A DNA stretch of 42,355 nucleotides from a virus. Shown here one piece after another: positions 9,066 to 39,340 of this stretch. The stretch lies in the UHGV virus genome UHGV-0194685; one strand, written 5' to 3'. A program made the translations under genes and the position numbers. How positions within the stretch are numbered: the stretch's first letter is position 1; every line of letters begins with the position of its first letter. The notes beneath the pieces were generated by a model. The model had not been told where the DNA came from. It searched no databases and saw only the letters and a program-made list of their open reading frames with translations.

Positions 9066-9079
9066 CTAAAGGAGGGTCT

Positions 9080-9394: not shown

Positions 9395-9414
9395 AAATAT
9401 TGCAGGTGAAGAAA

Positions 9415-9657
9415 ATGAAAACAATTAATATTTTCGGCGAGTACATCGAAGGTGAAGAAGTAGAGTATACGGATCAGCCGTATAAAAATATCATCATTGT
9501 AGAAGACCACAAAGGCGACAAGCACGTCGTTCATCGTGACACTGTGGATGAAAAACATAAACGCACAAAGAGCCGTGCAGGAGTGAGATTTGATCTGCTT
9601 GCTTGTCAAGCAAACGGACGGAAAGGACCAATTAGAAAATGGAGGCGGATTGGTTGA
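9415..9657 (+). CDS. hypothetical protein (~80 aa)
   Basis: ATG inside the track ORF 9400..9657, with GGTGAAG upstream. Confidence 0.4.
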   Translation: MKTINIFGEYIEGEEVEYTDQPYKNIIIVEDHKGDKHVVHRDTVDEKHKRTKSRAGVRFDLLACQANGRKGPIRKWRRIG

Positions 9658-9848
9658 TGCCCAAAAAATTAATTCGTGAAATAGCTGCCTCATACGGCTA
9701 TCAGCGGCTTAGAAAATACCGCCAATGGGATGATGTTCATTTCTCAGCAGAAGTGAACGGCGTTGTGATTGTGGTGAACATTGAGTCTGGCGAGCTGTAC
9801 GAAAGAAATCCGTTCACTAAAAAGTTGATGAAGCAGGAGGAGAATTAA
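9657..9848 (+). CDS. hypothetical protein (63 aa)
   Basis: ATGA stop/start overlap with the upstream gene. It lies within the track ORF 9639..9848. Confidence 0.4.
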   Translation: MPKKLIREIAASYGYQRLRKYRQWDDVHFSAEVNGVVIVVNIESGELYERNPFTKKLMKQEEN

Positions 9849-10310
9849 ATGTTATCACAGGAAAACAGAAAGAAAATCGTTTCAAATGGCTTGTACCAAA
9901 GAAAGATAGACTGGTCGAGAGTGATAGGAAGTGAACCGTTTTGGTGTACTAACTGGACATTCATTCCCCAAATTGATGAAGACGAAGTAGTGATGATTGA
10001 TAGTTATTACCAAAGCTATCAATATAGCATTCACTATTATATTGATGATAAAAATATCCAAGATTTTGAGTTGATTTTTGATTTTGACGATGTCGAGGAA
10101 GTTCCAGAAAGATTATATCGCGAATATGATGATGAAGATCGTTATCGGGTATCTTGTGATTCGGGTGGCAGAAACTATCCAAAACACTTTGTTAAAAAAT
10201 CCGCTTTGCCATCGAAAGAACGGCAGTTAGAATGTATCGATTTAGAAATAGATTCTTACGAAAGAAAATTAAGATATTTGAAAGAAAAAAGAGAGCCATT
10301 AGTCCGCTAA
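9849..10310 (+). CDS. hypothetical acidic protein (153 aa)
   Basis: ORF-track ORF with an AGGAGGAG RBS. Confidence 0.5.
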   Translation: MLSQENRKKIVSNGLYQRKIDWSRVIGSEPFWCTNWTFIPQIDEDEVVMIDSYYQSYQYSIHYYIDDKNIQDFELIFDFDDVEEVPERLYREYDDEDRYRVSCDSGGRNYPKHFVKKSALPSKERQLECIDLEIDSYERKLRYLKEKREPLVR

Positions 10311-10336
10311 CTGGGGCTATCAAGGAGGTTTTGGTA

Positions 10337-10597
10337 ATGGGAAAATATCGCTGGCATGTCAGCCGAGTAGGAGAAAAACCAGAAATCGTTCGGCACTACA
10401 ACTGGATTACTAAAATGTATCGGTTCATTTTGAGAAATCCAGCTATGTTTGCTGGACGAGAGTTGACGATTTATAAAAATGGAAAGCCCTGTGTTGACCT
10501 TCATTTTGATGAAATAAAGAGAAGATTTGACTTGAATAACAAAGAAGGAATCGAGCGTAAATATATCAACGAATTATCAAAGGAGGACAGCGAATGA
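10337..10597 (+). CDS. hypothetical protein (86 aa)
   Basis: ATG at 10337 with an AAGGAGG RBS, inside the track ORF 10232..10597. Confidence 0.45.
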   Translation: MGKYRWHVSRVGEKPEIVRHYNWITKMYRFILRNPAMFAGRELTIYKNGKPCVDLHFDEIKRRFDLNNKEGIERKYINELSKEDSE

Positions 10598-10815
10598 TTG
10601 CAACGACCATAGTTCACACGATAGTCGGTTTCATAATAGCTGCTATGGGATATATCTTATTCAATGTAAGTGACAAAAGTGAAAAAGGTTGGCGAGTATT
10701 TGGAGCCATTTTGTTTGTTATAGGAGCTTTTATAATTCTTGGTGCTGAATTAAATCTTTACTTCAATGGGACGCAGGAAGAATTAATAAAGTGGATGTTT
10801 TGGATGAAAGATTAG
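10594..10815 (+). CDS. small two-TM membrane protein (73 aa)
   Basis: ORF-track ORF with two hydrophobic helices. An ATGA overlap couples it to the upstream gene. Confidence 0.45.
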   Translation: MIATTIVHTIVGFIIAAMGYILFNVSDKSEKGWRVFGAILFVIGAFIILGAELNLYFNGTQEELIKWMFWMKD

Positions 10816-10855
10816 TTCCGGTAACCACGCCTATTACAGAAAGGAAGTTTTAGAA

Positions 10856-11434
10856 ATGAAATTATATAGCAAAGAAGAATTTGAAAAAATGAAAACTTTA
10901 AAAAGAGAGTTCGTAGAAACAGAAGAAGGTGAGTTATTCACAAAAAATACAGTTAAGCGTCGTCTACGAGCTGGAGAAGAAAAGGCAACACAGCTATTCA
11001 ATGACTTGACCAAACAGGAGGAAATAATGATACCGAAGTTTAGAGCGTGGGATAAAAAATACAAAATGTTGATGCGGGTCAACCAAATCGATTTTTTAAA
11101 AGGAACGGCTTGGCTTGAAGCAGATCAAGGAGATCACGAAACAAGGCATACACTCACAAGATGTTTCGACGATGTGATACTCATGCAATCCACTGGATTG
11201 ATAGACCGTAACGGCGTGGAGATATTTGAGGGGGATGTAGTGAAATGGGGCGACACACTAGATTGGGAAGAAACACCAATTAGAATCGCTACAGTGAAAA
11301 TTGACCCAGATATTCTATTTGATTCAAATGTTGGGATATTTAATTATGGACAATTTGCTTATAAGAATACAGAAAAATTTCTTACTATTTTAGGCAACAT
11401 CTACGAAAATCCAGGGTTACTAAACCTACGCTAA
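10856..11434 (+). CDS. YopX-family protein (paralog 1) with an in-frame 57-aa N-terminal extension; a second start is possible at 11027
   Basis: The C-terminal 135 aa are alignable by eye to the 13603 ORF (MIPKFRAW...ILMQSTGL...GVEIFEGD...TILGNIYE). An AGGAGG RBS precedes the internal ATG at 11027, and an AAAGGAAG RBS precedes 10856. Confidence 0.65.
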   Translation: MKLYSKEEFEKMKTLKREFVETEEGELFTKNTVKRRLRAGEEKATQLFNDLTKQEEIMIPKFRAWDKKYKMLMRVNQIDFLKGTAWLEADQGDHETRHTLTRCFDDVILMQSTGLIDRNGVEIFEGDVVKWGDTLDWEETPIRIATVKIDPDILFDSNVGIFNYGQFAYKNTEKFLTILGNIYENPGLLNLR

Positions 11435-11461
11435 TCACCAATATTAAGGAGGAGAAAGTAA

Positions 11462-11719
11462 ATGAATAAATTGTCAAACGGAAGAGAAAATATGAGTAAA
11501 GAGCAACTGATGGGAGTATGTGATCAATTGGAACAAGAATTGGTTGGAGCTCAAGCTGTAAACAAAGCTTACAAGAAGCATTTAGAGCAAGTAATCGAAT
11601 ACCACTCAGTAGAGAAATACCGATCCATTGTACAAAAAAATAGAGAAGCAGCGGCAACTGCTCCTCTAAAATTTAGCATTGAAGAAGGCTATGGAGATAA
11701 AATTGAAAATCCTTATTGA
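11462..11719 (+). CDS. hypothetical protein (85 aa)
   Basis: ORF-track ORF with an AAGGAGGAG RBS. Confidence 0.45.
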   Translation: MNKLSNGRENMSKEQLMGVCDQLEQELVGAQAVNKAYKKHLEQVIEYHSVEKYRSIVQKNREAAATAPLKFSIEEGYGDKIENPY

Positions 11720-11739
11720 GGAAACACTAAGCTACTTTT

Positions 11740-12093
11740 ATGAAAATTTTCGATTGTTGGCAAAAAAAGAGAGCTTGGAAGTCGAGAAAGTGTAGGTTCA
11801 ATCGGATGATCAAAAAAATAAAAACTTTGATCGATGGTTTTCTGCTAGAAAGAAAACTCGTTAAGGTTAGAGAATTAATAAAGAGTCATATAGATAGCGG
11901 TGAACGTTCAATGTATTGGGTCGCCACTGATAGCGAAAAGCAGAACTTTATGAACATGATCAGATTTTTTGAGATTGCATTCGAAGATGGATATTTTGCG
12001 ACTGGTGAGTATTTTGATGCATCTTCATGGATGTCTTCGAATCCAGAAGAAGTGTGGCAAATTTATTTGGAAATGAAAGAGGTGTCGGAATGA
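11740..12093 (+). CDS. hypothetical protein; the exact start is uncertain
   Basis: ORF-track ORF. Confidence 0.35.
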   Translation: MKIFDCWQKKRAWKSRKCRFNRMIKKIKTLIDGFLLERKLVKVRELIKSHIDSGERSMYWVATDSEKQNFMNMIRFFEIAFEDGYFATGEYFDASSWMSSNPEEVWQIYLEMKEVSE

Positions 12094-12383
12094 ACATGAG
12101 TCAAAATCTATCTATCCCTCAAAAAATAGCAGCGGCACTAGACCAGTGTGAATCTTGGTTCCGCTACGATTGCAAAAACTTATGGATGGGAACATCGGCT
12201 TTGGTTGAGCTTGAGGGTATGACATTTGATGAAGCACAATTAGAAAGAGAAAAAATAAACTCAGTGATTTTTGATTGGGTAAATGATTCTAAAGAGCGGC
12301 AATCTCTTGTCATTGCATATTTGAATCCCGCAACATCACCAAAAGCAGCGCCGTTACTGTGGGCATTGGAGGAGGAAGAATGA
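12090..12383 (+). CDS. hypothetical protein (97 aa)
   Basis: ATG at 12090 with a GAGGTG RBS. It overlaps the upstream stop (ATGA). It lies inside the track ORF 12027..12383. Confidence 0.4.
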   Translation: MNMSQNLSIPQKIAAALDQCESWFRYDCKNLWMGTSALVELEGMTFDEAQLEREKINSVIFDWVNDSKERQSLVIAYLNPATSPKAAPLLWALEEEE

Positions 12384-12478
12384 TGATACCGAATATCGAA
12401 ATCGGGAAAATTTATAAATTATCTGATGCAAACCCGCCAGCATTTGCGGAATGGGGAATGAAAGAGGTGGCAGAATGA
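12380..12478 (+). CDS. tiny ORF (32 aa, MMIPNIEIGKIYKLSDANPPAFAEWGMKEVAE)
   Basis: An AGGAGG RBS lies 6 nt upstream. ATGA overlaps couple it to both neighbours. It is below the ORF-track cutoff. Confidence 0.25.
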   Translation: MMIPNIEIGKIYKLSDANPPAFAEWGMKEVAE

Positions 12479-12711
12479 ATAACAGACATCGAAGAGTTGA
12501 ACGTTTAAGGCGACAACAAGTTATTAGTTCTTGTAAGCAATATGACGTTACACCAGAAATGGTGGAAAAACTATATAAAGACGTATATGAAACAGTGTCT
12601 AACATCGTAGTAGGCGTAGGTACAGCTTTTATCAATATCGGAAAAGCATTTATGGATACAGGGGAAAGATGGAGAAGCACAGGTAATCTGAAAAGAATTA
12701 AGGATAGGTGA
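12475..12711 (+). CDS. hypothetical basic protein (78 aa)
   Basis: ATG at 12475 with a GAGGTGG RBS, inside the track ORF 12451..12711. Confidence 0.4.
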   Translation: MNNRHRRVERLRRQQVISSCKQYDVTPEMVEKLYKDVYETVSNIVVGVGTAFINIGKAFMDTGERWRSTGNLKRIKDR

Positions 12712-12720
12712 CGGTTCCGC

Positions 12721-12745
12721 TAACCGAAGCGATTGCATAGAAAAG
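12721..12745. repeat. direct repeat copy 1 (TAACCGAAGCGATTGCATAGAAAAG)
   Basis: A near-identical ~24-nt copy lies at 13199-13223. The two copies bracket the 12753..13202 ORF. Confidence 0.5.
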
Positions 12746-12752
12746 AGGTGCT

Positions 12753-13202
12753 ATGTTGCAAGCAATCTTTACATTGCGTAGAAAAGGCTTTAACAAAAAA
12801 ATCAAAGTTGGAGAAATTTTTAACTATAAAGATGAAAAATATGTTTTGACACACATTGTTGAAATTAAACATTTTTATAGTAGTTCCGCTCGGATGGAAG
12901 TGGAAGGAGTAGCCCAGCTAGTTGGTGGTAAATCCGATTTTAGCCAATATGAAAGAACAAGTGAATTTGTAAGAAAATACCCCAAAGGTGAGTTCACAGA
13001 AGAAAATCCACTCTACAGGGTTGGAGACATTTTTGTATTTGATGGAATTTGCGGTGAAATAACGAATCTTGAATCAATTGAGTTTGAGTTCGTTGACTTA
13101 GTAGTTACCTATCATTCAAGATTGTTCCGGCCGTGGAGTGATGAGGAAATGAGTCAAGCGATCAAAGAGGATCGGCTATCAAAATTTAAAGTAGTCGGTT
13201 AA
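12753..13202 (+). CDS. hypothetical protein (149 aa) bracketed by 24-nt direct repeats (cassette-like)
   Basis: ORF-track ORF. The flanking direct repeats are seen directly. Confidence 0.5.
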   Translation: MLQAIFTLRRKGFNKKIKVGEIFNYKDEKYVLTHIVEIKHFYSSSARMEVEGVAQLVGGKSDFSQYERTSEFVRKYPKGEFTEENPLYRVGDIFVFDGICGEITNLESIEFEFVDLVVTYHSRLFRPWSDEEMSQAIKEDRLSKFKVVG

Positions 13203-13223
13203 CGAAGCGATTGCATAGAAAAA
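13199..13223. repeat. direct repeat copy 2 (TTAACGAAGCGATTGCATAGAAAAA)
   Basis: Matches 12721-12745 with one indel. Confidence 0.5.
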
Positions 13224-13545
13224 GACCGCTGGGTTTAGGGTGACAGCGGTCAGTGAATTAGGCGTTAATCTAATTCAGAAAAAGAACTTTAGTCTAGTTT
13301 CCGCTAGACTAAAGCATTCTATCATAAAAAAGACCATTGGTTAAATCCAACGGTCTCTGAGCTAGTTGAAATATGCTTCAGATTAATGAAATCAACAAGG
13401 AAGAACCTAGCTCGTTTAAATTATATCACAAAAAAGGACTACCGCGGTATGATACGGCAGTCCATGAGCTAGGGAATGGGGAAGCTAATTAATCGGTAAG
13501 AAGCCTAGCTCGCGCACATATTTTGTCTTCTCAAAAGACAAATAT
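13224..13545. promoter_or_regulatory. hairpin-dense intergenic region with alternating GAGCTAG / CTAGCTC motifs
   Basis: Hairpins lie at 13224-13251 (8 bp), 13287-13314 (11 bp, perfect), 13331-13356, 13436-13463 and 13522-13542. The motif occurs as GAGCTAG at 13359 and 13466 and as its complement CTAGCTC at 13407 and 13505. Confidence 0.4.
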
Positions 13546-13602
13546 ATTTTAACAAGATAGCGTTTTCGAAATCAACCGCGAACGGTAGTAAGGAGGAAAA
13601 TA

Positions 13603-13992
13603 ATGATACCGAAGTTTAGAGCGTGGTGGATACAAGATGAAGTGATGACACACATTTACACATTGGAGTTCTTGCAGGGTGGCATCAGGGTATCTGACGG
13701 ATGTTGGCACGAGAAATTTTTAGGTGATGAAGTCATTCTCATGCAATCAACAGGCCTCAAAGACAAGAACGGCGTTGAGATTTTTGAGGGGGATATAGTT
13801 AATTATGACGATGGAGAGTTTAGTTATATTGGCTCTGTAAAAAAAGACTATTATCAGTTCTATATTAATGGCATAGAACCAGTTGATAGTTATGATTTTA
13901 TTGACGTTTCAAATACTTTTGATGGCACAACTTCATTAACTATTTTAGGCAACATCTACGAAGATAAAGAATTGTTGGAGGCGATAGAATGA
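13603..13992 (+). CDS. YopX-family protein (paralog 2)
   Basis: The 5' end (about 34 nt) and the 3' ACTATTTTAGGCAACATCTACGAA are identical at nucleotide level to paralog 1, while the middle is divergent. An AGGAGG RBS is present. Confidence 0.7.
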   Translation: MIPKFRAWWIQDEVMTHIYTLEFLQGGIRVSDGCWHEKFLGDEVILMQSTGLKDKNGVEIFEGDIVNYDDGEFSYIGSVKKDYYQFYINGIEPVDSYDFIDVSNTFDGTTSLTILGNIYEDKELLEAIE

Positions 13993-14162
13993 AACTAAAA
14001 GAACTAATTGAGCAGCATACGTTAAAAGTTGTTTTCTGTGGTCACTGCGAATGTGGAGAGCGCAAATATGATTTGATCACAGATCAGAATCTAGCTTATC
14101 CGCCAATTCATGAGTCGACTATTAAGGAAGTAAAACCAGAGTTGTTGGAGGTGGAACAATGA
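13989..14162 (+). CDS. small Cys-rich protein (57 aa, ...CGHCECGE...)
   Basis: Hand translation. ATGA overlaps couple it to both neighbours. Confidence 0.4.
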   Translation: MKLKELIEQHTLKVVFCGHCECGERKYDLITDQNLAYPPIHESTIKEVKPELLEVEQ

Positions 14163-14527
14163 AAAAATGTCCGATTTGTGATGAAACTTTCAGACAGTTT
14201 GAAGATATTGTGGAAGTTGAATATAAATATTATCACGAAGATTGTTTGGAAATTGTCCCCATCAGATATTGTGCTTACAATCCCAATGAAGATCCTGAGG
14301 ATAGTTTCATTGGACAATTTGATAATGATGATAAATCTTGGGTTAGCGACATGATGGATGAGGGCGATTACTTAGAAGAGAAGAGATTTAAGGTATCATT
14401 TGTAAGTCCTTTGACTGCTTCAAATCCAGTACAGTCTATTGACATATTCGCTCTTGACGAAGATGAGGCTAAAGAAAGAATTAGTTCTGAGTATCGCCAA
14501 GTATTAACAGTGAAGTTGGTCAACTAA
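14159..14527 (+). CDS. Cys/His-containing acidic protein (122 aa, MKKCPICDE...HEDC)
   Basis: ORF-track ORF. Confidence 0.5.
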   Translation: MKKCPICDETFRQFEDIVEVEYKYYHEDCLEIVPIRYCAYNPNEDPEDSFIGQFDNDDKSWVSDMMDEGDYLEEKRFKVSFVSPLTASNPVQSIDIFALDEDEAKERISSEYRQVLTVKLVN

Positions 14528-14553
14528 CGTCGCCAATAAAGGAGGTTTAGAAA

Positions 14554-14730
14554 ATGGATATCGTCAAAATGTTTTTTGAAGTTATGGACCACGTTTTAAG
14601 TATTATTTGGGATTTACTATTACTTAATTGGCTTATGTACGGTGGAAAATGGATAATTGGTGAAAAGTATCTCGAATTAACAATTCCTCCAATGTTGAAA
14701 AAAAGTAAAAGGGCCTATAAGGGAGATTAG
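14554..14730 (+). CDS. small hydrophobic protein (58 aa)
   Basis: An AAGGAGG RBS lies 8 nt upstream. It is below the ORF-track cutoff. Confidence 0.35.
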   Translation: MDIVKMFFEVMDHVLSIIWDLLLLNWLMYGGKWIIGEKYLELTIPPMLKKSKRAYKGD

Positions 14731-14867
14731 AATTAATTTCATGCATCACAGAAATGCATAAGGCACAACATATTGTATGCGAAAATGAGTTCCCACGATA
14801 TATTGTGGATAAACCTGTTAATATGTGCATAACAAAATGTAAATGTTGATTGAGTGGGGGATAAGCA

Positions 14868-15284
14868 GTGTCAGAATTAACTAAAACTAAGTTAGCGGAT
14901 TTGGAAGAGGATTTCCGATCATACAAAAAAATACCGAGCAAAATAGCCGAGGCATTAGTTGCTAGGGAATGGAAGCCCGAAGATACTAACTCTTGGATCA
15001 AAGGTAGTCAGACTCATACAGAAAAGGCTCTGACTGATCTAATAAAGAGAGAAGACAATAAGAGTTATCTATATTATTCAAAACTGTACATGGACATTTC
15101 AAAGGCTTATGCGAGCCTTAGCTCAGAGCTGAAAGAGATTGTAGACAAATATTTGTGGGGGGAGCTAAGCTATCTCGAGTGGCGCGAAATTGCTGAATAT
15201 GAACACTGTTCTAAAACAGCAGTATATAAAAAGCGATTTAAAATTTTAGAGAGTTTAGCAATCCAGCAAGGAAAAGTGTTCTAA
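14868..15284 (+). CDS. ArpU-family late transcription regulator
   Basis: The ~138-aa size, the C-terminal WGE/YLEWREIAE-type region and the position just upstream of the packaging module match ArpU/Alt-type activators. The start is a GTG. Confidence 0.65.
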   Translation: MSELTKTKLADLEEDFRSYKKIPSKIAEALVAREWKPEDTNSWIKGSQTHTEKALTDLIKREDNKSYLYYSKLYMDISKAYASLSSELKEIVDKYLWGELSYLEWREIAEYEHCSKTAVYKKRFKILESLAIQQGKVF

Positions 15285-15704
15285 AACGTGTGGTAGACCA
15301 CCCTGTCAATGCCCTAAAATAGTATTATCAGAGAGTTTTAAATAATCCATCAAGCAGACGACTCAAATTAACTTTATTGGCATGAAGTTTCTCCTTATAC
15401 CTCTTAACATACAAACGTCTAGCTTGGTGGATTTAATGGCGGCACACAAAAAATAAAAGAAGAGGATGTGAAGAAACACTCCTCAACTTTAAAGTTCACG
15501 TGCCGCCTTTATGTCACTGTGGCGGAAAGGCCATCAGATCAGTTGCAACGCTGACAGTGACTTAGACGAAAGGTAGCTTAAATATTAACCACATCAACAT
15601 CGTCAGCGAGTTGATAAAGGTAACTAGCAGACTCTAGGATTTAAGCCAGTCTTACCGATTAGTCTATTATAGTAGCAAGCTTACTGGAGGTAGCTCCTCC
15701 GAGT

Positions 15705-15771
15705 TGGCGTGTAGCTCATTTGGTAGAGCGCCTTAATCAGGAGGTCGCCGGTTCGATCCCGGTCACGTCAA
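15705..15771 (+). tRNA. tRNA-like element (67 nt) with acceptor, D and T arms but only a 2-bp anticodon stem
   Basis: Hand fold. The acceptor stem is TGGCGTG/CACGTCA with one G-T pair. The D arm is GCTC-ATTTGGTA-GAGC. The T arm is GCCGG-TTCGATC-CCGGT. Between them is CC-TTAATCA-GG instead of a 5-bp anticodon stem. There is no CCA, and the first nucleotide is T. It is probably not a functional canonical tRNA. Confidence 0.4.
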
Positions 15772-16268
15772 TATAGAATCTACGGAAACAATCAATCATC
15801 TCGGATGCCGATTGATTGGCTGCATTTACCAGCGTGCTGGAACTCAGTTAAAAGGCATAGAATACTATCTCAGACGTGAGACGCTCTCAGTTGTAGGTTA
15901 GGAGAGGAACATTAAGTTGGATTTGCTAGGAACACGGCAAGTTGCCATACGCAGGCTTTGTGAGCGGTCTATGAGCAGATACATCAATGCAATCATAGTT
16001 AAATGAGTTTGCTTTGATCAGGGGCGGTATTCTGATCCAGTGTTCAACATCGGCTATCTCGTCATAGCCCTAACGAAGCAACCGAGCATTCCTATCTGCC
16101 GGATACGGATAAACAGTGGGTTCCATAATGGAGTAGGTTGCTTAATTTAATGTCAATGCTCTCATTCCTGTATAGGCAGATATGTTCTGAGGTGAGAGCT
16201 TTAATACATACCAGTACCGCAAACGCCTCTTAACAATGCGGACCACTTGCGGTCGTAATACATAATCA

Positions 16269-16299
16269 AGATCACTCGTTTGAGTGGTCTTTTTATTTT
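16269..16299 (+). terminator. Rho-independent terminator
   Basis: AGATCACTC-gttt-GAGTGGTCT stem (9 bp, one G-T pair) followed by TTTTTATTTT. Confidence 0.6.
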
Positions 16300-16366
16300 A
16301 ACCTTATCGTCCAATCTGCACGATGGGGTTACTGCTAATAAGGTCATCGAAGAAAGGACTGATCCA

Positions 16367-16571
16367 AATGAGAAACCACTGGTACATTTCATTGGCGGGT
16401 AACTATCCGCAGCGCGCAATGTCAGCGCAGATAGCAAAGCGTTATACCATTGTTGAGCTGACGGACGAAGCGACACCGAATGAGATTGATCAGTACAAGT
16501 TGGTTCTCGTTGGTATCGGTTGGTTTAATGACAAACACATTCAAGAGAATATAAAGAGGTGGTTAAGGTGA
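16367..16571 (+). CDS. possible small ORF (67 aa) downstream of the ncRNA terminator
   Basis: ATG with GAAAGGA upstream, inside the track ORF 16323..16571. Low confidence; this could be non-coding. Confidence 0.2.
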
Positions 16572-16755
16572 CATACTTTGAATACTTGCGGCAGTGCTTT
16601 AATCACGCTAAGACAAAGCTACCTGACAGCTACACTGTAGATGATGTAGCTATATTTGTATTGAAGACTTAGATTCATAGCTATCCTGATGGTAGCAGCA
16701 AAGAGCAGACGCTCGCATGGTTAAAGTTCTTTAAGTGGATTAAGGAGGAAGAGTA

Positions 16756-17286
16756 ATGTTTTGGAATAAAAAAGAAAATCCTTTTGTTGTTAGACAAGAC
16801 TTTAATTATCCGAAGGTGCTTATCAAAACGCCTCATAAAGATTTAGAAGGTTATATTGAAGAAGTTGATTTCGAATACTTAGATGAAAGAAGCAAGGTGT
16901 TTATAGTTCATGCAGAAAGAGAACACCCGATAACAAGAGAAAGAATAGGAACTGTGTTCGGAGTATCTATTAAAGAAGTAGAGGCGAACGATTGGTACAT
17001 GAAGATAACACATGATGGGGAAACGTTATACGAGACGGTAACTAAGAACACTGAACCTAACCTACTAGAAATCAAACTGAAGGATACTGATTCGGTCCCT
17101 GAAGTGTATTACAAAGGTGAGAGGTTGGATGAGCTGCCCAAAGCTTTGGTGGATATCTCGTATCATTACAGGACGACCGGAGAGTGGCCTGATGATTCAG
17201 CTAACGACATCAACATAGAATACTACTCAACATCGAATGATAAGTACCTCGATAAGAAGATCATTGGACACAAGCGGGACATGTAG
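16756..17286 (+). CDS. hypothetical protein (176 aa)
   Basis: ORF-track ORF with an AGGAGGAAGAG RBS. Its Arg codon usage (AGA/AGG) differs by eye from the early genes. Confidence 0.55.
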   Translation: MFWNKKENPFVVRQDFNYPKVLIKTPHKDLEGYIEEVDFEYLDERSKVFIVHAEREHPITRERIGTVFGVSIKEVEANDWYMKITHDGETLYETVTKNTEPNLLEIKLKDTDSVPEVYYKGERLDELPKALVDISYHYRTTGEWPDDSANDINIEYYSTSNDKYLDKKIIGHKRDM

Positions 17287-17598
17287 ATGATTGAAGTAAC
17301 AACTAAAGCAGACAGAGCTAAGTTCTATTCATCGAGCGAGTGGAAGCAGCTAAGGCAAGAAGTGCTGGAACGTGATCACTACGAGTGTCTGTGGTGTAAA
17401 GAAGAGGGTAAGGTTACAACTGTTAACGATTCTATCTTGGAAGTGGATCACATTAAAGAGCTTGAATATCATCCAGAATTTGCGACTGATATAGATAATC
17501 TAAGAACATTGTGCAAAGAATGCCACAACAAGCGGCATAGTCGTATGAATTATCGCGGCGCAGAACGTAAGAAAAAATTTGATGATGAATGGTGGTAG
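17287..17598 (+). CDS. HNH endonuclease (terminase-associated)
   Basis: HNH motifs CLWCKEEGK...EVDHI...LCKECHNKRH. It lies directly upstream of the small terminase, as in HK97-like cos phages. Confidence 0.85.
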   Translation: MIEVTTKADRAKFYSSSEWKQLRQEVLERDHYECLWCKEEGKVTTVNDSILEVDHIKELEYHPEFATDIDNLRTLCKECHNKRHSRMNYRGAERKKKFDDEWW

Positions 17599-17728
17599 GA
17601 AATCATACCCCCCGGTCGAAATATTTTGGCTAAAAATAAAAATTTTGGAAACCGGTGGATGGGTCAACTCCACAGATCCATTGATGATACGCGTATAACC
17701 CCCTCCCCAGAAGAAAGGAAGTGATTGG
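17599..17728. other. candidate cos / packaging-site region
   Basis: GC-rich motifs CATACCCCCCGGTCG and TAACCCCCTCCCC lie in an AT-rich 130-nt gap between the HNH and TerS genes. This is inference from position only. Confidence 0.25.
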
Positions 17729-18088
17729 ATGGCGGATTTAAAAATCAGGAATGAAAAGGTAGCAGCTGAGGAAAAACGATTGAATGAATTGTTTTTTGAT
17801 TTGGCTGACGATAAGAAAAAAGTTGTTTCTGGATTAGTAACTCAAGCGGCACGATTAAAAATATTACTAGACGAAATGTGGATTGATATTTCTGAAAAAG
17901 GAGATTATGAATTATTCTCTCAGTCAGAAAATCAGATTCCTTACGAACGGGAGCGGCCGGTGGCAAAACAATACAATGCACGAGATCAATCGTATCAGCG
18001 GATTGTCAAGCAGTTAACTGACTATTTGCCAGAAGAAAAACGAGATGCGGCTGCTTCTGCTGCGTTAGATGGTAGTGATCTTCTATGA
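17729..18088 (+). CDS. terS: terminase small subunit (P27-like)
   Basis: 119 aa, placed between the HNH and TerL genes. An AAGGAAG RBS is present. Confidence 0.7.
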   Translation: MADLKIRNEKVAAEEKRLNELFFDLADDKKKVVSGLVTQAARLKILLDEMWIDISEKGDYELFSQSENQIPYERERPVAKQYNARDQSYQRIVKQLTDYLPEEKRDAAASAALDGSDLL

Positions 18089-19728
18089 CGTTGCTACAAC
18101 CTTATTTTTTTGATGAATACGTAGATCTCTACGAACGCGGAGTAATCCCATTCAATAAAGAACGTATTCAATTAGTCGAGTATCTTAAAAAAGAAGTTCT
18201 AATCAGAGATGATATTTATTTTGATGATGAAATGATTCAAAAATTTATCCGATACGCTGAAAAGAATTTCTTCCCATTAGCTAAATATCAGAAATTTATA
18301 ACGCCTTTCATTTTCCTTTACAAAAAAGAAGATGATGAGGTGTTTTTTAATGAAATTTTGAACTCTATTGCTCGTGGTGGGGGGAAGAACGGCTTCATGT
18401 CTGCTAGGGATTCATTTTTTATTTCGCCTCTTTATGGCGTTCACAATTATGATGTGACAATTACTGCTAATTCTGAGAAACAAGGGAAAGTCAGTTTTAA
18501 AGAAGTATATGAAACTGTTCAGGCTAAACGATTAGAACAGCAATTTTATCTGACAAAAATGGCAATTACCAATCGAGTGACCAATTCGATTTTTAGTTAT
18601 CGGACCAACAACCCAAAAACAATGGACAGCGCGCGTGACGGCTGCCTTGAATTTGATGAAATACACATGTTCGAAAATTCAGATATCGTGGATATCCAAC
18701 GGAGCGGTTTAGGAAAAATTCAACATCCTCGCACCTTTTACAACGGGACGAATGGCCATGTGCGTGAAGGTTTCTATGACCGAATGTTAGAACGCGCACA
18801 GAAAATATTCACTGGTGAAAACAAGAATGACCGTTTGTTTCCATTTATTTGTAAACTCGACACGATCGAAGAGATGGAAAAACAGGAATTATGGTCTAAA
18901 GCGAATCCGATGTTCGAAGAAGATTCTCCTTACGCCAAACGCTTGTATCAAACTGTTATGGACGAATACCTAAAGTTAGAAGAAGAGCCGTCTGGTCGCC
19001 GGGAGTTTGTCGTCAAACGGATGAATTTTACCGAAGGCGATATGGAAACCGATATTACTACTCACGAAAAGTTAATGGCTACGGATCAGCCGATTGGTGA
19101 TTTAAAAGGAAAGTCTTGTGTTGCTGGATTTGACTATGCGGAGATTCGAGATTTTGCAAGCGTTGGCTTGTTGTTCAAACACGATGAGAAATTTATTTGG
19201 TTACAACATAGTTTTGCTCGAAAGGAATTTTTAGACACCTTTAAAATCAAGGCACCGATCAAAGAATGGGCAGATAAAGGAATATTTACAATCGTAGATG
19301 CTCCTTCAATTTCTCCTCAACTACTAATTGATTGGTTGAATGAAAAACGTGAATTGTATCAGATTGAAATGGTGTGTGCAGATGGTTATCGAATGGACCT
19401 GCTGCAACCGCTATTGGAAAAAGAAGGGTATAACTATGAATTTATTCGAAATATTCGTGGCGTGCAATCGAAAGTGGCGCCAATTATTGAAGATGGTTTT
19501 GCGAACGAAAAATTTATTTTTGGCGATGATCCATCGATGCGATGGTACACAAATAACAGCTATGCAAAAGTAGACAAATCAGGAAATAAAACATTCTTGA
19601 AAAAAGAACCAGTCCGAAGAAAGACAGATGGTTTTCATGCCTTCTTAGCGGCTTTATATAAACGAGAAGAAATTCAAGATGTTGATTTAGAAGGCTTTTT
19701 TGACATGATGGAAAATTGGGACTTTTAA
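18085..19728 (+). CDS. terL: terminase large subunit
   Basis: 547 aa with an ATPase motif region (ARGGGKNG) and a C-terminal nuclease-like acidic motif. An ATGA overlap couples it to terS. Confidence 0.9.
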   Translation: MTLLQPYFFDEYVDLYERGVIPFNKERIQLVEYLKKEVLIRDDIYFDDEMIQKFIRYAEKNFFPLAKYQKFITPFIFLYKKEDDEVFFNEILNSIARGGGKNGFMSARDSFFISPLYGVHNYDVTITANSEKQGKVSFKEVYETVQAKRLEQQFYLTKMAITNRVTNSIFSYRTNNPKTMDSARDGCLEFDEIHMFENSDIVDIQRSGLGKIQHPRTFYNGTNGHVREGFYDRMLERAQKIFTGENKNDRLFPFICKLDTIEEMEKQELWSKANPMFEEDSPYAKRLYQTVMDEYLKLEEEPSGRREFVVKRMNFTEGDMETDITTHEKLMATDQPIGDLKGKSCVAGFDYAEIRDFASVGLLFKHDEKFIWLQHSFARKEFLDTFKIKAPIKEWADKGIFTIVDAPSISPQLLIDWLNEKRELYQIEMVCADGYRMDLLQPLLEKEGYNYEFIRNIRGVQSKVAPIIEDGFANEKFIFGDDPSMRWYTNNSYAKVDKSGNKTFLKKEPVRRKTDGFHAFLAALYKREEIQDVDLEGFFDMMENWDF

Positions 19729-19750
19729 AGCAGTGAAGGGGGGTGTGTAA

Positions 19751-20908
19751 ATGGGAGTATTTCAATCGTTTTTTGATATTTTCAAAAAAAATTCAGAGAT
19801 TGAATCAAGCTATGATTTTGATGCGTTAATCGATGAATACCATACACTTTACTTGAAACACCTAGCCGTCGATACGTGTGCTGAGTTTTTAGCTCGGTCT
19901 TTTGGGCGTTCAGAATTTAGGATTCGAAAAAATGGGCAACCGCTTAAAAATGAATGGACGTATTTGCTGAACGTCCGACCGAATTTAGACCAATCTGCAT
20001 CATCATTTTGGCAACAAGTCGTTTATAAGTTGATCACGCAAAATGAGGTTTTAATTGTTTTGTCTGATGATGACCAATTATTAATCGCAGAAAGTTATGT
20101 CAGAAAAGAATATGCATTGTACGAAGATTATTTCGAAAGCGTGTGGTTGAAAGGGTATGAGTTCAAACGAAAGTTTCCAATGAGTGAAGTAATTTTTCTC
20201 CAGTATAACAACAATGATTTGAGTCGATATGTACGTGGCCTGTATGAAGACTATGCCTCTCTCTACAATCGCATGGTTGAAGTGGCAATGCGCAACCATC
20301 AGATTAGAGCAACTGTTACTGGTAAAGAAGGTCGCGGGTTTGATGACAAGCTGCAAAAGAGAGCGCAATCGTATATTGATAAAGTTTATGCGAAATTCAG
20401 CAAAGAATCTATTGCAATTGTCCCTGTGCAAGCCGGACTCGAGTACAACGAACTAACAAATACAGTTGGAGAAACGAATCAGTCGATTGATGAACTGAAA
20501 AAGTTAAAACGACAGTTCGTGGATGAAGTCGCTGATATTTTAGGGATCCCTTCTACAATATTGCATGGTGAATTAGCAGATTTAGAAAGTGCGCAAACAG
20601 TACTGAATAAATATTGTTTGAAGTCATTGAATAAAAAAATTGAAGATGAGTTAAACGCTAAAATCATTGATAAAACCGAATTTGTTAATGGGACGGAAAT
20701 CAAAGTTGTAGGCGTGGATAAAAAAGATATTTTCGATTTGGCAGATGCAGTAGACAAGTTGATTTCAAGTGGTGGATTCAATCGAAATGAGATTCGAAAA
20801 GAAGTCGATTATGAAAGTATCGATGGTGGCGATGAGTTTTACATCACCAAAAACTATGAGAAGGCAGCGAAAGGAGGGGAGGAAGTAGATGACGAAACTG
20901 GAAATTAA
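19751..20908 (+). CDS. portal protein
   Basis: 385 aa, placed directly after TerL and before the protease. Confidence 0.8.
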   Translation: MGVFQSFFDIFKKNSEIESSYDFDALIDEYHTLYLKHLAVDTCAEFLARSFGRSEFRIRKNGQPLKNEWTYLLNVRPNLDQSASSFWQQVVYKLITQNEVLIVLSDDDQLLIAESYVRKEYALYEDYFESVWLKGYEFKRKFPMSEVIFLQYNNNDLSRYVRGLYEDYASLYNRMVEVAMRNHQIRATVTGKEGRGFDDKLQKRAQSYIDKVYAKFSKESIAIVPVQAGLEYNELTNTVGETNQSIDELKKLKRQFVDEVADILGIPSTILHGELADLESAQTVLNKYCLKSLNKKIEDELNAKIIDKTEFVNGTEIKVVGVDKKDIFDLADAVDKLISSGGFNRNEIRKEVDYESIDGGDEFYITKNYEKAAKGGEEVDDETGN

Positions 20909-21596
20909 AGGAACGATTATTTCTAATAATCAAAAATGGATTTACGATTTGTTTGAAATGGACAGCACATCACCGAAAGATATTTTATTGCCTGAAAACA
21001 ACGAACCACTAGAGGTCGTGATTAATTCGGGAGGTGGTGACGTATATGCAGGCAGTGAGATTTATACAGCTTTGCGGGCTTATCAAGGTGACGTGACTGT
21101 GAAAATCGTAGGTATTGCTGCAAGCGCCGCAAGCGTGATTGCAATGGCTGGAAACACAATTGAAATCAGCCCGACTGCTCAAATTATGATTCATAATGTT
21201 TCAAGCGCTGCTGCTGGCGATCATCGAACGTTAGCCCACGAAGCAGAAGTATTGAAAAATTATAACTCATCAATCGCGAATGCTTATATTGCAAAAACAG
21301 GCATTGAAGAAACCGAGTTGCTGGAATTAATGAATCACGAAACTTGGCTTACCGCTGAACAAGCAGTAGAAAACGGTTTTGCTGATAAAGTCATGTTTGA
21401 AAGCACCGAAGCACCTTTACTAGTAGCAAGTGTCTCGCCGGTTATTCCGCCAGACGCGATTTCAAAATTAGCAGAAAAGTTAAAACCGCAGTTTGATTTA
21501 GATGAATTGGCAAACAAAGTAGCGGAAAAACTAAATACTGAAAAACAAGAATCGATTGAACCAGAAAATGCTGGTTTGAAACGGTTCTTTTTTTAA
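20889..21596 (+). CDS. ClpP-family (S14) prohead protease
   Basis: VVINSGGGDVYAGSEIY...IVGIAASAASVIAMAG matches the ClpP Ser-His region. Confidence 0.85.
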   Translation: MTKLEIKGTIISNNQKWIYDLFEMDSTSPKDILLPENNEPLEVVINSGGGDVYAGSEIYTALRAYQGDVTVKIVGIAASAASVIAMAGNTIEISPTAQIMIHNVSSAAAGDHRTLAHEAEVLKNYNSSIANAYIAKTGIEETELLELMNHETWLTAEQAVENGFADKVMFESTEAPLLVASVSPVIPPDAISKLAEKLKPQFDLDELANKVAEKLNTEKQESIEPENAGLKRFFF

Positions 21597-21621
21597 TAAA
21601 AAAATAAGGAGGTCATACTGA

Positions 21622-22737
21622 ATGACTATGAAACTATCAAACGAATTCAAAACAATTCGTGACAACTTCTTAGCTGCTGTTAATAATAACGAGCCAGCTG
21701 AAAAACAAAATGAACTATACGGTGCAATGCTCGATGAATTGCTGAACGAAGCAAAAAAACAAGCGCGTGCTGAGGCAGAAGGATTAATTGCTGAAAATCC
21801 GGCAGATGCGAAACTATCTGCTCGTGAGCGTAAATTTTTTAATGCTATCAGCACGGACGTCGGTTATAAAGAAGAAAAATTGTTGCCGCAAGAAACCATT
21901 GATCGAATCTTTGAGAACTTAACTACTGCCCATCCACTATTAGCTGAAATCGGTTTAGTAAACGCAGGGCTACGATTGAAATTCTTGAAATCTGAAACAA
22001 GTGGTGTTGCTGTATGGGGAAAAATTTTCGGCGAGATCAAAGGCCAGTTAGATGCAGCGTTCAGCGAAGAAGAAGCAATTCAAAGCAAATTGACGGCGTT
22101 TGTAGTTGTTCCTAAGGATTTGAAAGACTTCGGACCAGCTTGGATTGAATCATTTGTGGCTACTCAAATTGATGAAGCTTTTGCAGTGGCTTTAGAGGCT
22201 GCTTTTTTATCAGGAGATGGAAATGACAAGCCGATTGGTTTAAATCGTCAAGTTCAAGAAGGTGTAGCCATTACTGGTGGTGTTTATCCAGAAAAAACTT
22301 CAATGGGCGATTTAACATTTGCTGATTCAGCAACGACTGTTAAAGAACTAACGAATGTTTACAAACATCATTCAACTGACGAAAAAGGTCACGCAGTTGC
22401 TGTAGATGGAAAAGTTGTCATGGTAGTTAATACTAGTGATGCTTGGGATGTCAAACGTCAATATACTTCATTAAATGCGCAAGGAGTATATGTAACTGCG
22501 TTACCTTACAATTTGAAAATTGTTGAATCATTAGCGCAAGCAACTGAAAAAGTTTTAACGTTCGTAAACGGCCGATACGATGCATATATTGGTGGGGGCA
22601 TTACTTTACGTAAATACGATCAAACATTGGCAATCGAAGATTTAGATCTATACACTGCTAAGCAATTCGCATATGGAAAAGCTAAAGACGATAAGGCTGC
22701 TGCAGTTTGGGGATTAAAAGTATCCGAGGGAAAATAG
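21622..22737 (+). CDS. major capsid protein (HK97-like)
   Basis: 371 aa directly after the protease, with an AGGAGG RBS. The gene ends at the slippery heptamer G_GGA_AAA followed by TAG. Confidence 0.85.
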   Translation: MTMKLSNEFKTIRDNFLAAVNNNEPAEKQNELYGAMLDELLNEAKKQARAEAEGLIAENPADAKLSARERKFFNAISTDVGYKEEKLLPQETIDRIFENLTTAHPLLAEIGLVNAGLRLKFLKSETSGVAVWGKIFGEIKGQLDAAFSEEEAIQSKLTAFVVVPKDLKDFGPAWIESFVATQIDEAFAVALEAAFLSGDGNDKPIGLNRQVQEGVAITGGVYPEKTSMGDLTFADSATTVKELTNVYKHHSTDEKGHAVAVDGKVVMVVNTSDAWDVKRQYTSLNAQGVYVTALPYNLKIVESLAQATEKVLTFVNGRYDAYIGGGITLRKYDQTLAIEDLDLYTAKQFAYGKAKDDKAAAVWGLKVSEGK

Positions 22738-22799: not shown

Positions 22800-22814
22800 A
22801 AAGGGGCGTTTCTA

Positions 22815-39306: not shown

Positions 39307-39340
39307 AAAAGGGGCAGAAAAGGGGCAAAACTCATTTGCC
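39307..39340. repeat. attP-region repeats: AAAAGGGGCA, GAAAAGGGGCA, then GGCAAA-actca-TTTGCC
   Basis: Second copy of the 39101-39131 arrangement. These are candidate integrase arm/core binding sites. Confidence 0.45.

What the first reader, a model, noticed from the sequence alone, without database searches (positions are those of the whole stretch)
15705..15771. tRNA-like module with intact acceptor, D and T arms but a 2-bp anticodon stem
The 67-nt segment folds by hand into a cloverleaf. The acceptor is TGGCGTG/CACGTCA. The D arm is GCTC/GAGC with loop ATTTGGTA. The T arm is GCCGG-TTCGATC-CCGGT. Between the D and T arms there is only CC-TTAATCA-GG where a 17-nt anticodon arm should be. The 5' nucleotide is T and there is no encoded CCA. 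It is therefore neither a normal tRNA gene nor a 3'-half attP remnant, since the 5' half is present. A mini-tRNA-like structure inside a large structured RNA is reminiscent of tRNA-like domains used as processing (RNase P/Z) or mimicry elements.
Basis: seen in the sequence. Interest (0 to 1): 0.55.

Follow-up and report, generated by a model that had tools for sequence, protein, structure and literature searches.

The report
Phage lysine tRNA missing its anticodon
This 67-base element is a phage lysine-tRNA gene that lost six bases including its anticodon, so it can no longer decode, but it keeps the parts that tRNA-cutting enzymes recognise and sits inside a roughly 1-kb mosaic non-coding RNA locus.

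Summary
Window 15705-15771 (+) matches the Rfam tRNA model (48.5 bits, cut-off 29), while ARAGORN calls no tRNA. It is not a new kind of mini-tRNA. Related phages carry an intact tRNA-Lys(UUU) at the same position. The window copy equals that tRNA minus 6 nt (G30-U35, or equivalently U29-U34), leaving an 11-nt hairpin (CCU-UAAUC-AGG).

The allele is genuine: three independent assemblies are identical. Two other phage backbones (L060, L061) carry it too. It is rare, with 0 deleted against 17 intact junctions in IMG/VR.

U1:A72 is shared by the intact relatives. A missing CCA is normal, at least in Streptococcus and Lactococcus.

The element lies in an ORF-free, terminator-ended, roughly 970-nt mosaic of separately folded RNA modules. 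That locus holds a second tRNA-derived stump (15513-15561). In relatives the slot holds an intact tRNA-Lys, odd non-canonical tRNA-likes or internally deleted stumps. All keep the acceptor stem, and all but the shortest stump keep a T arm.

Best reading: a non-decoding tRNA relic that RNase P and RNase Z probably still cut, separating the neighbouring RNA modules. That step is inferred. A functionless pseudogene is the main rival. Interest is moderate, and most of it lies in the surrounding locus.

The parts
15705..15771 (+). TL2: a tRNA-Lys(UUU)-derived tRNA-like element, 67 nt, lacking 6 nt of the anticodon arm
   Evidence: Rfam tRNA 48.5 bits; no ARAGORN call; aligned to intact tRNA-Lys of L015, L001 and L004 with a single 6-column gap
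15705..15711 (+). Acceptor stem 5' strand UGGCGUG. It pairs with 15764-15770 and carries G3 of the G3.U70 wobble.
   Evidence: Acceptor helix is 98.6% paired across 20 distinct slot sequences; the 5' strand was part of the search pattern for most of them.
15714..15729 (+). D arm GCUC-AUUUGGUA-GAGC. G18 and G19 are present. Position 15 is U, where relatives have G.
   Evidence: D stem is 94.7% paired, with 3 of 4 pairs changed on both sides across the family.
15731..15741 (+). Residual anticodon arm CCU-UAAUC-AGG. The 6-nt deletion (G30-U35, or equivalently U29-U34) falls between C15732/U15733 and U15734.
   Evidence: Alignment A3. The intact relative L015 reads CCUGACUUUUAAUCAGG.
15742..15746 (+). 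Variable loop AGGUC
15747..15763 (+). T arm GCCGG-UUCGAUC-CCGGU with a canonical T-loop
   Evidence: T stem is 97% paired, with 2 pairs changed on both sides.
15764..15771 (+). Acceptor stem 3' strand CACGUCA plus discriminator A. The next bases are UAUAG and no CCA is encoded. This is the predicted RNase Z site.
   Evidence: RNase Z cuts immediately after the discriminator of CCA-less tRNAs (PMC8549757). Cleavage here is inferred.
15513..15561 (+). TL1: a 49-nt stump of a second tRNA-derived element (GUCACUG ... CAGUGAC). It keeps the acceptor-like helix and the start of a D arm resembling that of long-variable-arm tRNAs. The T arm is lost here.
   Evidence: Full forms in relatives are 88-161 nt. 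The two helices are 99.5% paired, with 4 pairs changed on both sides.
15562..15704 (+). UP module: a conserved non-coding module that starts right after the TL1 3' end and ends in the hairpin GGAGGUAGCUCCUCC, 4 nt before TL2
   Evidence: 88-93% identical in L001, L004-L012 and L023
15772..15906 (+). M3 module: a closed domain of about 125 nt with four internal hairpins. The closing helix is 15777-15784 with 15892-15899.
   Evidence: RNAalifold finds 31 pairs, 4 with compensatory changes. In all 14 distinct contexts it follows directly after a tRNA-like 3' end. It also lies next to ROOL in Schiekvirus. No Rfam family matches.
15339..15512 (+). M0/M1: the 5' part of the non-coding locus, made of long hairpins
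   Evidence: Shared at 92-96% with L005, L011, L015, L026, L050 and L060; fold
15907..16255 (+). M4 and M5 modules. In other phages each of these directly follows the tRNA-like element.
16268..16301 (+). Intrinsic terminator (10-bp stem, then a T-run) that closes the non-coding locus
   Evidence: The block 16256-16300 is conserved in most related loci.

Best explanation
The element is a copy of a phage tRNA-Lys(UUU) gene that has lost six nucleotides from its anticodon arm (G30-U35, or equivalently U29-U34). The deletion removes part of the 5' stem strand, U33 and at least one base of the UUU anticodon. It therefore cannot decode, and it lacks the anticodon bases that LysRS normally reads.

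Everything else survives: the 7-bp acceptor stem, the A73 discriminator, the D arm with G18G19, and a canonical T arm. Those are the parts that make the upper half of the tRNA L-shape.

I infer the following steps. The element is transcribed as part of a roughly 970-nt non-coding RNA that runs from just after the late-regulator gene to the terminator at 16268-16301. Host RNase P still cuts at its 5' end (15704/15705). Host RNase Z still cuts after A15771. These cuts would separate the upstream block (M0-TL1-UP) from the downstream block (M3-M4-M5). The loss of decoding is tolerated, or irrelevant, in this slot.

What is shown: the identity as an anticodon-deleted tRNA-Lys derivative, the synteny, the reality and spread of the allele, and the retained helices. 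What is inferred: transcription as one RNA, cleavage by RNase P and RNase Z, and any benefit from that cleavage.
For: **Identity.**
- Rfam tRNA 48.5 bits at 15705-15771.
- EH-TP1 has an intact 70-bit tRNA-Lys(UUU) at the same position, with 88% identity over 15552-15771.
- L015 differs only by the 6-nt indel and 2 T-stem bases.

**The allele is real and has spread.**
- Three independent assemblies are identical.
- The same deletion is present in L060 and L061. Their backbones share only short patches with the window and diverge from each other outside the locus.

**The slot keeps tRNA shape rather than decoding.**
- Twenty distinct sequences occupy the slot: 7 canonical tRNA-Lys, 10 class B (G33 and G37; Rfam scores from below about 25 up to 38 bits), and one each of classes C, D and E, the window being the twentieth.
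- A 38-nt stump in L050 keeps only the acceptor helix.
- Across these sequences the acceptor, D and T helices are 97.2% paired. Five pairs change on both sides. No shuffle out of 500 reached the observed pairing.

**Punctuation geometry.**
- M3 starts directly after a tRNA-like 3' end in all 14 distinct contexts.
- The UP module always starts directly after the TL1 3' end and ends 4 nt before TL2.
- The modules are separately closed domains with covariation.
- They are gained and lost as cassettes.

**Locus.** ORF-free, terminator-ended, z = -5.9 on 20 shuffles.

**Enzymology.**
- RNase Z cuts right after the discriminator of CCA-less tRNAs in Streptococcus (PMC8549757).
- RNase P reads the acceptor/T-stem stack (PMC10424219).
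- That minihelices lacking an anticodon arm are substrates for both enzymes is established knowledge, not tested here.
Against: - There are no expression or RNA-end data of any kind.
- The deleted allele is rare: 0 against 17 intact junctions in IMG/VR. The genome collection gave no true hit. The metagenome collection gave only 2 contigs.
- The 45-nt core is identical between the window and L060, so the allele has little time depth.
- TL2 evolves at about the same rate as its flanks. By my own count on the aligned sequences, window against L004 is about 91% identical within TL2, against about 89% overall.
- The window/L015 lineage carries other derived changes at functionally important positions. 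A3 to G creates G3.U70. G15 to U breaks the G15:C48 Levitt pair. Both look like relaxed constraint.
- Most related loci were found with patterns that include the 5' acceptor strand. Conservation of that strand is therefore partly an ascertainment effect.
- Identity of class C between L005 and L017 reflects a shared recombined block, not selection.
Confidence: 0.55

Rival explanations
1. It is a plain pseudogene. A phage tRNA-Lys(UUU) gene was recently inactivated by a 6-nt slippage deletion and is decaying. Any cleavage by RNase P or RNase Z is incidental and has no consequence for the phage.
For: - The deleted junction is rare: 0 against 17 intact in IMG/VR.
- The nearest relative, L015, still has the intact arm.
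- The lineage has extra derived changes at key positions: U15 and G3.U70 in the window, an A.G mismatch in the L015 T stem, and A1xA72 in L060.
- The same slot shows larger internal deletions: a 38-nt stump in L050 and the 49-nt TL1 stump in the window. This looks like a decay series.
- TL2 is no more conserved than its flanks (my count on the alignments).
Against: - The allele is carried in at least three different phage backbones and several samples without being purged.
- Across the family, every variant recovered, however deleted or rewritten inside, keeps both acceptor strands paired. All but the L050 stump keep a T arm.
- Module boundaries coincide exactly with tRNA-like ends.
- The majority of distinct sequences in the slot (13 of 20) are not canonical tRNAs. 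Decoding therefore does not seem to be what the slot conserves.
Confidence: 0.32
2. It is a selected tRNA mimic with a job beyond punctuation. After CCA addition it could be charged with alanine, because G3.U70 plus A73 are the main AlaRS identity elements. Alternatively it could act as a decoy or sponge for a tRNA-binding host factor, such as a defence nuclease or a modification enzyme.
For: - G3.U70 and A73 are present, and the LysRS anticodon determinants are gone.
- AlaRS charges even minihelices that carry G3:U70. This is established knowledge, not tested here.
- Anticodon-less tRNA mimics exist in bacteria (the tmRNA tRNA-like domain, YrlA).
- A relative (L050) carries an RtcB RNA-ligase gene near the locus.
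Against: - G3.U70 occurs only in the window and L015 lineage. It is absent from the other carriers of the deletion (L060 and L061 have A3-U70), so it is not linked to the deletion.
- The first pair is U1:A72 rather than G1:C72.
- No nuclease, Rsr or RtcB gene was identified in the window (ORF sizes only).
- A decoy for an anticodon nuclease would need the anticodon loop, which is exactly what is missing.
Confidence: 0.08
3. It is a functional decoding tRNA with an unusual anticodon arm, using the alternative 5-bp stem and 6-nt loop.
For: The minimum-free-energy fold draws GCCUU/GAGGU with loop AAUCAG.
Against: - The loop has 6 nt, there is no U33-anticodon-R37 layout, and the variable loop shrinks to 1 nt.
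- ARAGORN rejects the element.
- Rfam aligns only a 3-bp stem and 5 loop bases where the model has 11.
- All homologues with a working arm read CUUUUAA.
Confidence: 0.02
4. It is a sequencing or assembly artefact.
For: None.
Against: Three independent assemblies from different samples have the identical sequence. Two further contigs carry the same deletion.
Confidence: 0.01

Closest known systems
Phage-encoded tRNA-Lys(UUU) genes of Enterococcus-type temperate phages, for example Enterococcus phage EH-TP1 (PQ571301) and IMG/VR loci L004 and L015
   Same: Same genomic slot, between the late-regulator gene and the packaging genes. Same acceptor stem (UGACGUG/CACGUCA, A73). Same D arm, T arm and flanking modules. 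88-94% nucleotide identity.
   Different: Six nucleotides of the anticodon arm are missing. The Rfam score drops from 61-70 bits to 48.5, and ARAGORN no longer calls it.
tRNA islands and tRNA-linked large phage RNAs (ROOL, GOLLD)
   Same: [quoted passage not shown] Module M3, directly 3' of the element, also lies about 130 nt after a ROOL RNA in Schiekvirus phages, behind a TL1 element.
   Different: There is no ROOL or GOLLD match in the window, even at E up to 10 across the locus. The window RNA is a chain of small, separately closed modules, not one large conserved fold.
tRNA-like elements that define the ends of neighbouring non-coding RNAs through RNase P and RNase Z (MALAT1/mascRNA; murine gammaherpesvirus 68 tRNA-miRNA transcripts). 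Named from my own knowledge.
   Same: A non-decoding tRNA-shaped unit abuts structured RNAs, with module boundaries exactly at the tRNA-like 5' and 3' ends.
   Different: Those are eukaryotic or eukaryote-virus systems. Cleavage has been shown for them and has not been tested here.
Bacterial anticodon-less tRNA mimics: the tmRNA tRNA-like domain and Y RNA-like YrlA (RF02553)
   Same: Acceptor-like helix, T arm and D-loop elements without a decoding anticodon. G3.U70 is present, as in tmRNA.
   Different: ARAGORN finds no tmRNA. The window has no YrlA match. L060 gives only 21.5 bits against a cut-off of 69, caused by the TL1 T arm lying next to the TL2 D arm. The element is a contiguous cloverleaf derived from tRNA-Lys, not a permuted or split mimic.

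Membership tests
Canonical decoding tRNA (Rfam RF00005 / ARAGORN) | 7-bp acceptor stem with a discriminator base | tested here: met
   UGGCGUG/CACGUCA plus A
Canonical decoding tRNA (Rfam RF00005 / ARAGORN) | D arm with G18G19, and a T arm with a UUCRANY loop | tested here: met
   GCUC-AUUUGGUA-GAGC and GCCGG-UUCGAUC-CCGGU
Canonical decoding tRNA (Rfam RF00005 / ARAGORN) | 5-bp anticodon stem and 7-nt loop with U33, anticodon and R37 | tested here: not met
   Only 11 nt are present. Rfam aligns 3 bp and 5 loop bases where the model has 11. ARAGORN makes no call. The alternative fold has a 6-nt loop.
Canonical decoding tRNA (Rfam RF00005 / ARAGORN) | Covariance-model score above the curated cut-off | tested here: met
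   48.5 bits against 29
Phage tRNA-Lys(UUU) lineage of this locus (homology, not function) | Sequence homology and the same genomic position as intact tRNA-Lys(UUU) genes | tested here: met
tRNA-like structure (criteria in PMC10424219) | Folds into the full or partial shape of a tRNA | tested here: met
   The minimum-free-energy structure is a cloverleaf (z = -2.5). The helices are kept across the family, with covariation in the D and T stems. This is a prediction only.
tRNA-like structure (criteria in PMC10424219) | Interacts with a tRNA-specific enzyme (RNase P, RNase Z, CCA-adding enzyme, aminoacyl-tRNA synthetase) | not testable with these tools
   Needs in vitro cleavage or charging assays, or RNA-end mapping
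tmRNA | tRNA-like domain plus a tag reading frame, detectable by ARAGORN or RF00023 | tested here: not met
   No tmRNA is called
YrlA / bacterial Y RNA (RF02553) | Match to the covariance model | tested here: not met
   No hit in the window at E up to 10. L060 gives 21.5 bits against 69.
YrlA / bacterial Y RNA (RF02553) | Neighbouring rsr (Ro60) gene | not tested
   Only ORF sizes in the window were inspected. The ORFs were not scanned against protein families.
tRNA embedded in or next to GOLLD or ROOL | A GOLLD or ROOL RNA in the same locus | tested here: not met
   No match in the window. ROOL is found only in the Schiekvirus loci that share module M3.
attP/attB tRNA 3'-half remnant | Only the 3' part of a tRNA, lying next to an integrase | tested here: not met
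   Both halves are present. The probable integrase ORF at 39332-40468, identified by size and position only, is about 24 kb away.

The most novel reading that the evidence does not exclude
TL2 and its neighbour TL1 could be selected, anticodon-less tRNA mimics. In this reading they are integral parts of an undescribed family of modular phage non-coding RNAs: cassette arrays punctuated by tRNA-like units, found in Lactobacillales temperate phages and next to ROOL in Schiekvirus. The tRNA shape itself would be the functional unit, serving processing, CCA tailing or alanylation through G3.U70/A73, or docking to tRNA-binding host machinery. Repeated loss or rewriting of the anticodon domain would then be adaptive rather than decay.
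Probability: 0.15. Interest if true: 0.7.

Novelty: new variant of a known kind. Interest (0 to 1): 0.4.

Why it matters
Taken alone, the element is a broken phage tRNA, which is ordinary.

The interest lies in its setting. The slot sits in a roughly 0.5-1-kb mosaic non-coding locus, between the late regulator and the packaging genes, in many Enterococcus-type phages. That slot repeatedly carries tRNA-shaped units that cannot decode but keep an acceptor stem and, in nearly all cases, a T arm. The neighbouring structured modules begin and end exactly at those units. One of those modules also lies beside ROOL RNA in large Enterococcus phages.

If RNase P and RNase Z do cut these units, the locus would be a bacterial-virus example of tRNA-punctuated maturation of non-coding RNAs. 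It would also give an experimental handle on the unexplained association between large phage RNAs and tRNAs.

Tried and rejected
- **Deleted junction in IMG/VR.** 0 hits.
- **Deleted junction in GTDB genomes.** One hit (L003), which lies inside a protein-coding region with no tRNA features and no other similarity to the window. It is a chance match.
- **GOLLD, ROOL or any other Rfam family over 14700-17300 at E up to 10.** Only the tRNA hit, a sub-threshold abiF motif and a noise hit.
- **tmRNA and YrlA.** Rejected.
- **Class B slot occupants as true suppressor tRNAs for recoded late genes.** ARAGORN labels them tRNA-Stop (UUA) or SeC (UCA). Their phages have intact terminase and portal reading frames (549 and 385 codons, assigned by size and by synteny with the window's annotated genes) in the standard code. 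Genome-wide recoding is therefore not in use.
- **Identity of the anticodon-less class C element in L005 and L017 as evidence of selection.** Rejected. The two share a roughly 240-nt near-identical recombined block.
- **Named close relatives of the whole phage.** Megablast of 9000-24000 gave only short patches. The large terminase is 67% identical to Streptococcus Javan prophage terminases.
- **Literature searches for a description of this locus or of tRNA-like elements in Enterococcus prophages.** Nothing found.
- **G3.U70 as a feature linked to the deletion.** Rejected, because L060 and L061 carry the deletion with A3-U70.

Full report
**1. The observation**

Window 15705-15771 (+) reads UGGCGUG-UA-GCUC-AUUUGGUA-GAGC-G-CCUUAAUCAGG-AGGUC-GCCGG-UUCGAUC-CCGGU-CACGUCA-A.

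- The Rfam tRNA model matches exactly these coordinates with 48.5 bits (gathering score 29, E = 1.7e-07). It aligns every part except the anticodon arm, where it finds 3 bp and 5 loop bases instead of 11.
- ARAGORN calls no tRNA or tmRNA anywhere in the window.
- The 67-mer folds on its own into a cloverleaf-like structure (-24.5 kcal/mol, z = -2.5). The energy model prefers a 5-bp stem (GCCUU/GAGGU) with a 6-nt loop, which swallows G26 and the variable loop. No fold gives a 7-nt anticodon loop.

**2. What it is**

A search of phage records showed that the stretch just before and including the element (15552-15771) is 88% identical to Enterococcus hirae phage EH-TP1.

- At that position EH-TP1 has an intact tRNA-Lys(UUU): ARAGORN calls it, and Rfam scores it 70.1 bits.
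- IMG/VR locus L015 carries a tRNA-Lys(UUU) identical to the window element except for six extra bases and two T-stem bases. It reads CCUGACUUUUAAUCAGG where the window has CCUUAAUCAGG.
- The element is thus a tRNA-Lys(UUU) gene with a 6-nt deletion (G30-U35, or equivalently U29-U34). The deletion removes part of the 5' stem strand, U33 and at least one anticodon base.

- The 5' U pairs as U1:A72, and nearly all relatives share it, including the intact tRNA-Lys genes.
- No CCA is encoded. All tRNA genes of Streptococcus and Lactococcus lack CCA and are finished by RNase Z (PMC8549757).

**3. Is the deleted allele real, and how common is it?**

- The 176-aa protein encoded 1 kb downstream is found on contigs from many samples.
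- Three independent assemblies are 100% identical to the window over 14800-16800, deletion included. They are an ENA 42.4-kb scaffold that is probably the source of the window, a Logan assembly, and another ENA contig.
- A junction-specific pattern found nothing in IMG/VR.
- In one-genome-per-species GTDB it found only a chance hit inside a coding region.
- In the metagenome collection it found two contigs, L060 and L061 (the latter from human gut).
- Those two carry the same deletion on a 45-nt core identical to the window, but in another setting. The UP module is missing, apparently deleted between two GACG repeats. The element follows a full-length TL1 after 3 nt. Position 1 is mismatched (A1xA72) and the D loop differs.
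- L060 and L061 are nearly identical across the non-coding locus but diverge strongly outside it. Each shares only short patches with the window.
- The allele therefore sits in at least three phage backbones. It is still rare: the matching intact junction occurs 17 times in IMG/VR and the deleted one never.

**4. The slot in related phages**

Two conserved flanking modules served as anchors: UP (15562-15704) and M3 (15772-15906). Together with the hairpin that precedes the element, they recovered about 45 related loci. The slot holds 20 distinct sequences:

| Form | Distinct sequences | Notes |
|---|---|---|
| Canonical tRNA-Lys(UUU) | 7 | Rfam 61-70 bits where scored (L001, L015, L042) |
| Window element | 1 | 67 nt, 6-nt deletion |
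| Class B | 10 | 75-76 nt. ARAGORN labels it tRNA-Stop (UUA) or SeC (UCA). It has G33 and G37, and scores from below about 25 up to 38 bits in Rfam. |
| Class C | 1 | 64 nt, no anticodon arm |
| Classes D and E | 1 each | D is called Ile (UAU) by ARAGORN; E is not called. Both have C37 and aberrant T loops. |

Supporting calls for the table: 32, 36, 69, 70.

- Phages carrying class B have intact terminase and portal reading frames in the standard code, so they are not recoded.
- A relative found through a protein rather than a nucleotide anchor (L050) has only a 38-nt stump that keeps the paired acceptor strands.
- Over the 20 sequences the acceptor, D and T helices are 97.2% paired. Five pairs change on both sides. 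None of 500 shuffles reached the observed pairing. Slid controls pair at 29-50%.
- What the slot conserves is the tRNA frame, not a decoding anticodon.

Two caveats apply. Most loci were found with a pattern that includes the 5' acceptor strand. Some identities reflect shared recombined blocks rather than selection.

**5. The surrounding locus**

No ORF of 50 codons or more lies between 15284 and 16201 on either strand.

- Upstream is a PHROG transcription-regulator gene (14868-15284).
- Downstream are small genes, then HNH, phrog_1066 (function unknown; it sits where the small terminase is expected), large terminase and portal.
- A strong intrinsic terminator lies at 16268-16301.
- The 976 nt from 15330 to 16305 fold with z = -5.9 on 20 shuffles.

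Comparison with the related loci shows a mosaic of cassettes that are present or absent independently: M0/M1, TL1, UP, TL2, M3, M4 and M5.

- M3 is a closed domain of about 125 nt with compensatory changes. Its closing helix pairs 15777-15784 with 15892-15899.
- In all 14 distinct contexts M3 starts directly after a tRNA-like 3' end.
- M3 is also 85% identical to a stretch about 130 nt after a ROOL RNA (265 bits) inside the tRNA array of Enterococcus Schiekvirus phages.
- In those phages M3 is preceded by TL1.

TL1 is a second tRNA-derived element.

- It has a 7-bp acceptor-like helix (GUCACUG/CAGUGAC).
- It has a D arm that resembles those of tRNAs with long variable arms (my own recognition).
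- Its interior is hypervariable, so the whole element ranges from 88 to 161 nt.
- Its T arm completes the frame. The two helices are 99.5% paired, with 4 pairs changed on both sides.
- In the window TL1 is cut down to a 49-nt stump (15513-15561).

The window itself has no ROOL or GOLLD.

**6. How it most likely works**

Shown:
- The element cannot decode.
- It keeps all the helices and loop bases of the upper half of the tRNA.
- It lies between two conserved structured modules whose ends coincide with its own.

Established background:
- RNase Z cuts just after the discriminator of CCA-less precursors (PMC8549757).
- RNase P reads the acceptor/T-stem stack (PMC10424219).
- From general knowledge, both enzymes accept substrates that lack an anticodon arm.

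Inferred:
- The locus is transcribed as one RNA.
- The relic still directs RNase P and RNase Z cuts at 15704/15705 and 15771/15772, releasing the flanking modules.
- Loss of the anticodon is tolerated in this slot.

I put this at about 0.55.

The main rival, at about 0.32, is a functionless, recently broken pseudogene. It is supported by four things:
- the rarity of the allele;
- its shallow history;
- the extra derived changes in the lineage (G3.U70, U15, the L015 T-stem mismatch, A1xA72 in L060);
- the series of larger internal deletions in the same slot.

A selected mimic role, such as alanylation through G3.U70/A73 or a decoy function, is possible but weak. G3.U70 is not linked to the deletion, and a decoy for an anticodon nuclease would need the missing loop. 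A decoding tRNA and an artefact are both excluded for practical purposes.

**7. Comparison with known systems, and novelty**

- By descent the element belongs to the phage tRNA-Lys(UUU) lineage.
- It fails one defining feature of a working tRNA, the anticodon arm.
- It meets the structural criterion for a tRNA-like structure. The enzymatic criterion cannot be tested here.
- It is not tmRNA or YrlA, and it is not embedded in GOLLD or ROOL.
- In function it most resembles tRNA-like units that set the ends of neighbouring non-coding RNAs, such as MALAT1/mascRNA and the MHV68 tRNA-miRNA transcripts. That comparison comes from my own knowledge.
- I found no paper that describes this locus.

The element itself is a new variant of a known kind. 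The modular locus around it (TL1, M3, the link to ROOL neighbourhoods) is the more novel part and deserves its own study.

Noticed in passing
window 15513-15561; L002 about 2925-3000; L060 6302-6432 (- strand): TL1, a second tRNA-derived element. It has a 7-bp helix (GUCACUG/CAGUGAC), a D arm like that of long-variable-arm tRNAs (UGGCGGAA..GGUAGACGC), a hypervariable interior (whole element 88-161 nt) and a T arm. ARAGORN and Rfam do not call it. It is a 49-nt stump in the window and lies directly after ROOL in Schiekvirus phages.
   Followed up: partly
window 15772-15906: M3, a closed structured RNA domain of about 125 nt with compensatory changes and no Rfam family. It is shared at about 85% identity between temperate Enterococcus-type phages and 150-kb Schiekvirus phages, and it always starts right after a tRNA-like 3' end.
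   Followed up: partly
window 16217-16253; L043 601-637: A hairpin matches the Rfam abiF RNA motif at 30.2 bits, below the cut-off of 37, just before the locus terminator. It could be a phage copy of a defence-associated RNA motif, or it could be chance.
   Followed up: no
L011, L023, L026, L028 and others (class B occupants of the slot): Elements of 75-76 nt that ARAGORN labels tRNA-Stop (UUA) or SeC (UCA). They have G33 and G37 and are the commonest distinct form in the slot. Their phages' late genes read normally in the standard code.
   Followed up: partly
L015 1094-1166: An intact Lys (UUU) anticodon arm combined with G3.U70 and A73, the main alanine identity elements. This could be a Lys-codon reader charged with alanine. 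Its T stem has an A.G mismatch.
   Followed up: no
L050 1-382 and 2653-2690: A relative that shares the 176-aa protein has an RtcB RNA-ligase gene upstream of the locus. Its tRNA-like element is reduced to a 38-nt stump that keeps only the paired acceptor strands.
   Followed up: no
window 15448-15525: GGCGGCAC...GUGCCGCC forms a long hairpin. Its 3' strand CCGCC could instead pair with GGCGG at the start of TL1, which gives possible alternative structures.
   Followed up: no
window 15339-16301 compared with L001-L061: The whole non-coding locus is a mosaic of cassettes gained and lost at precise junctions. In L060 the UP module is removed between two GACG repeats.
   Followed up: partly
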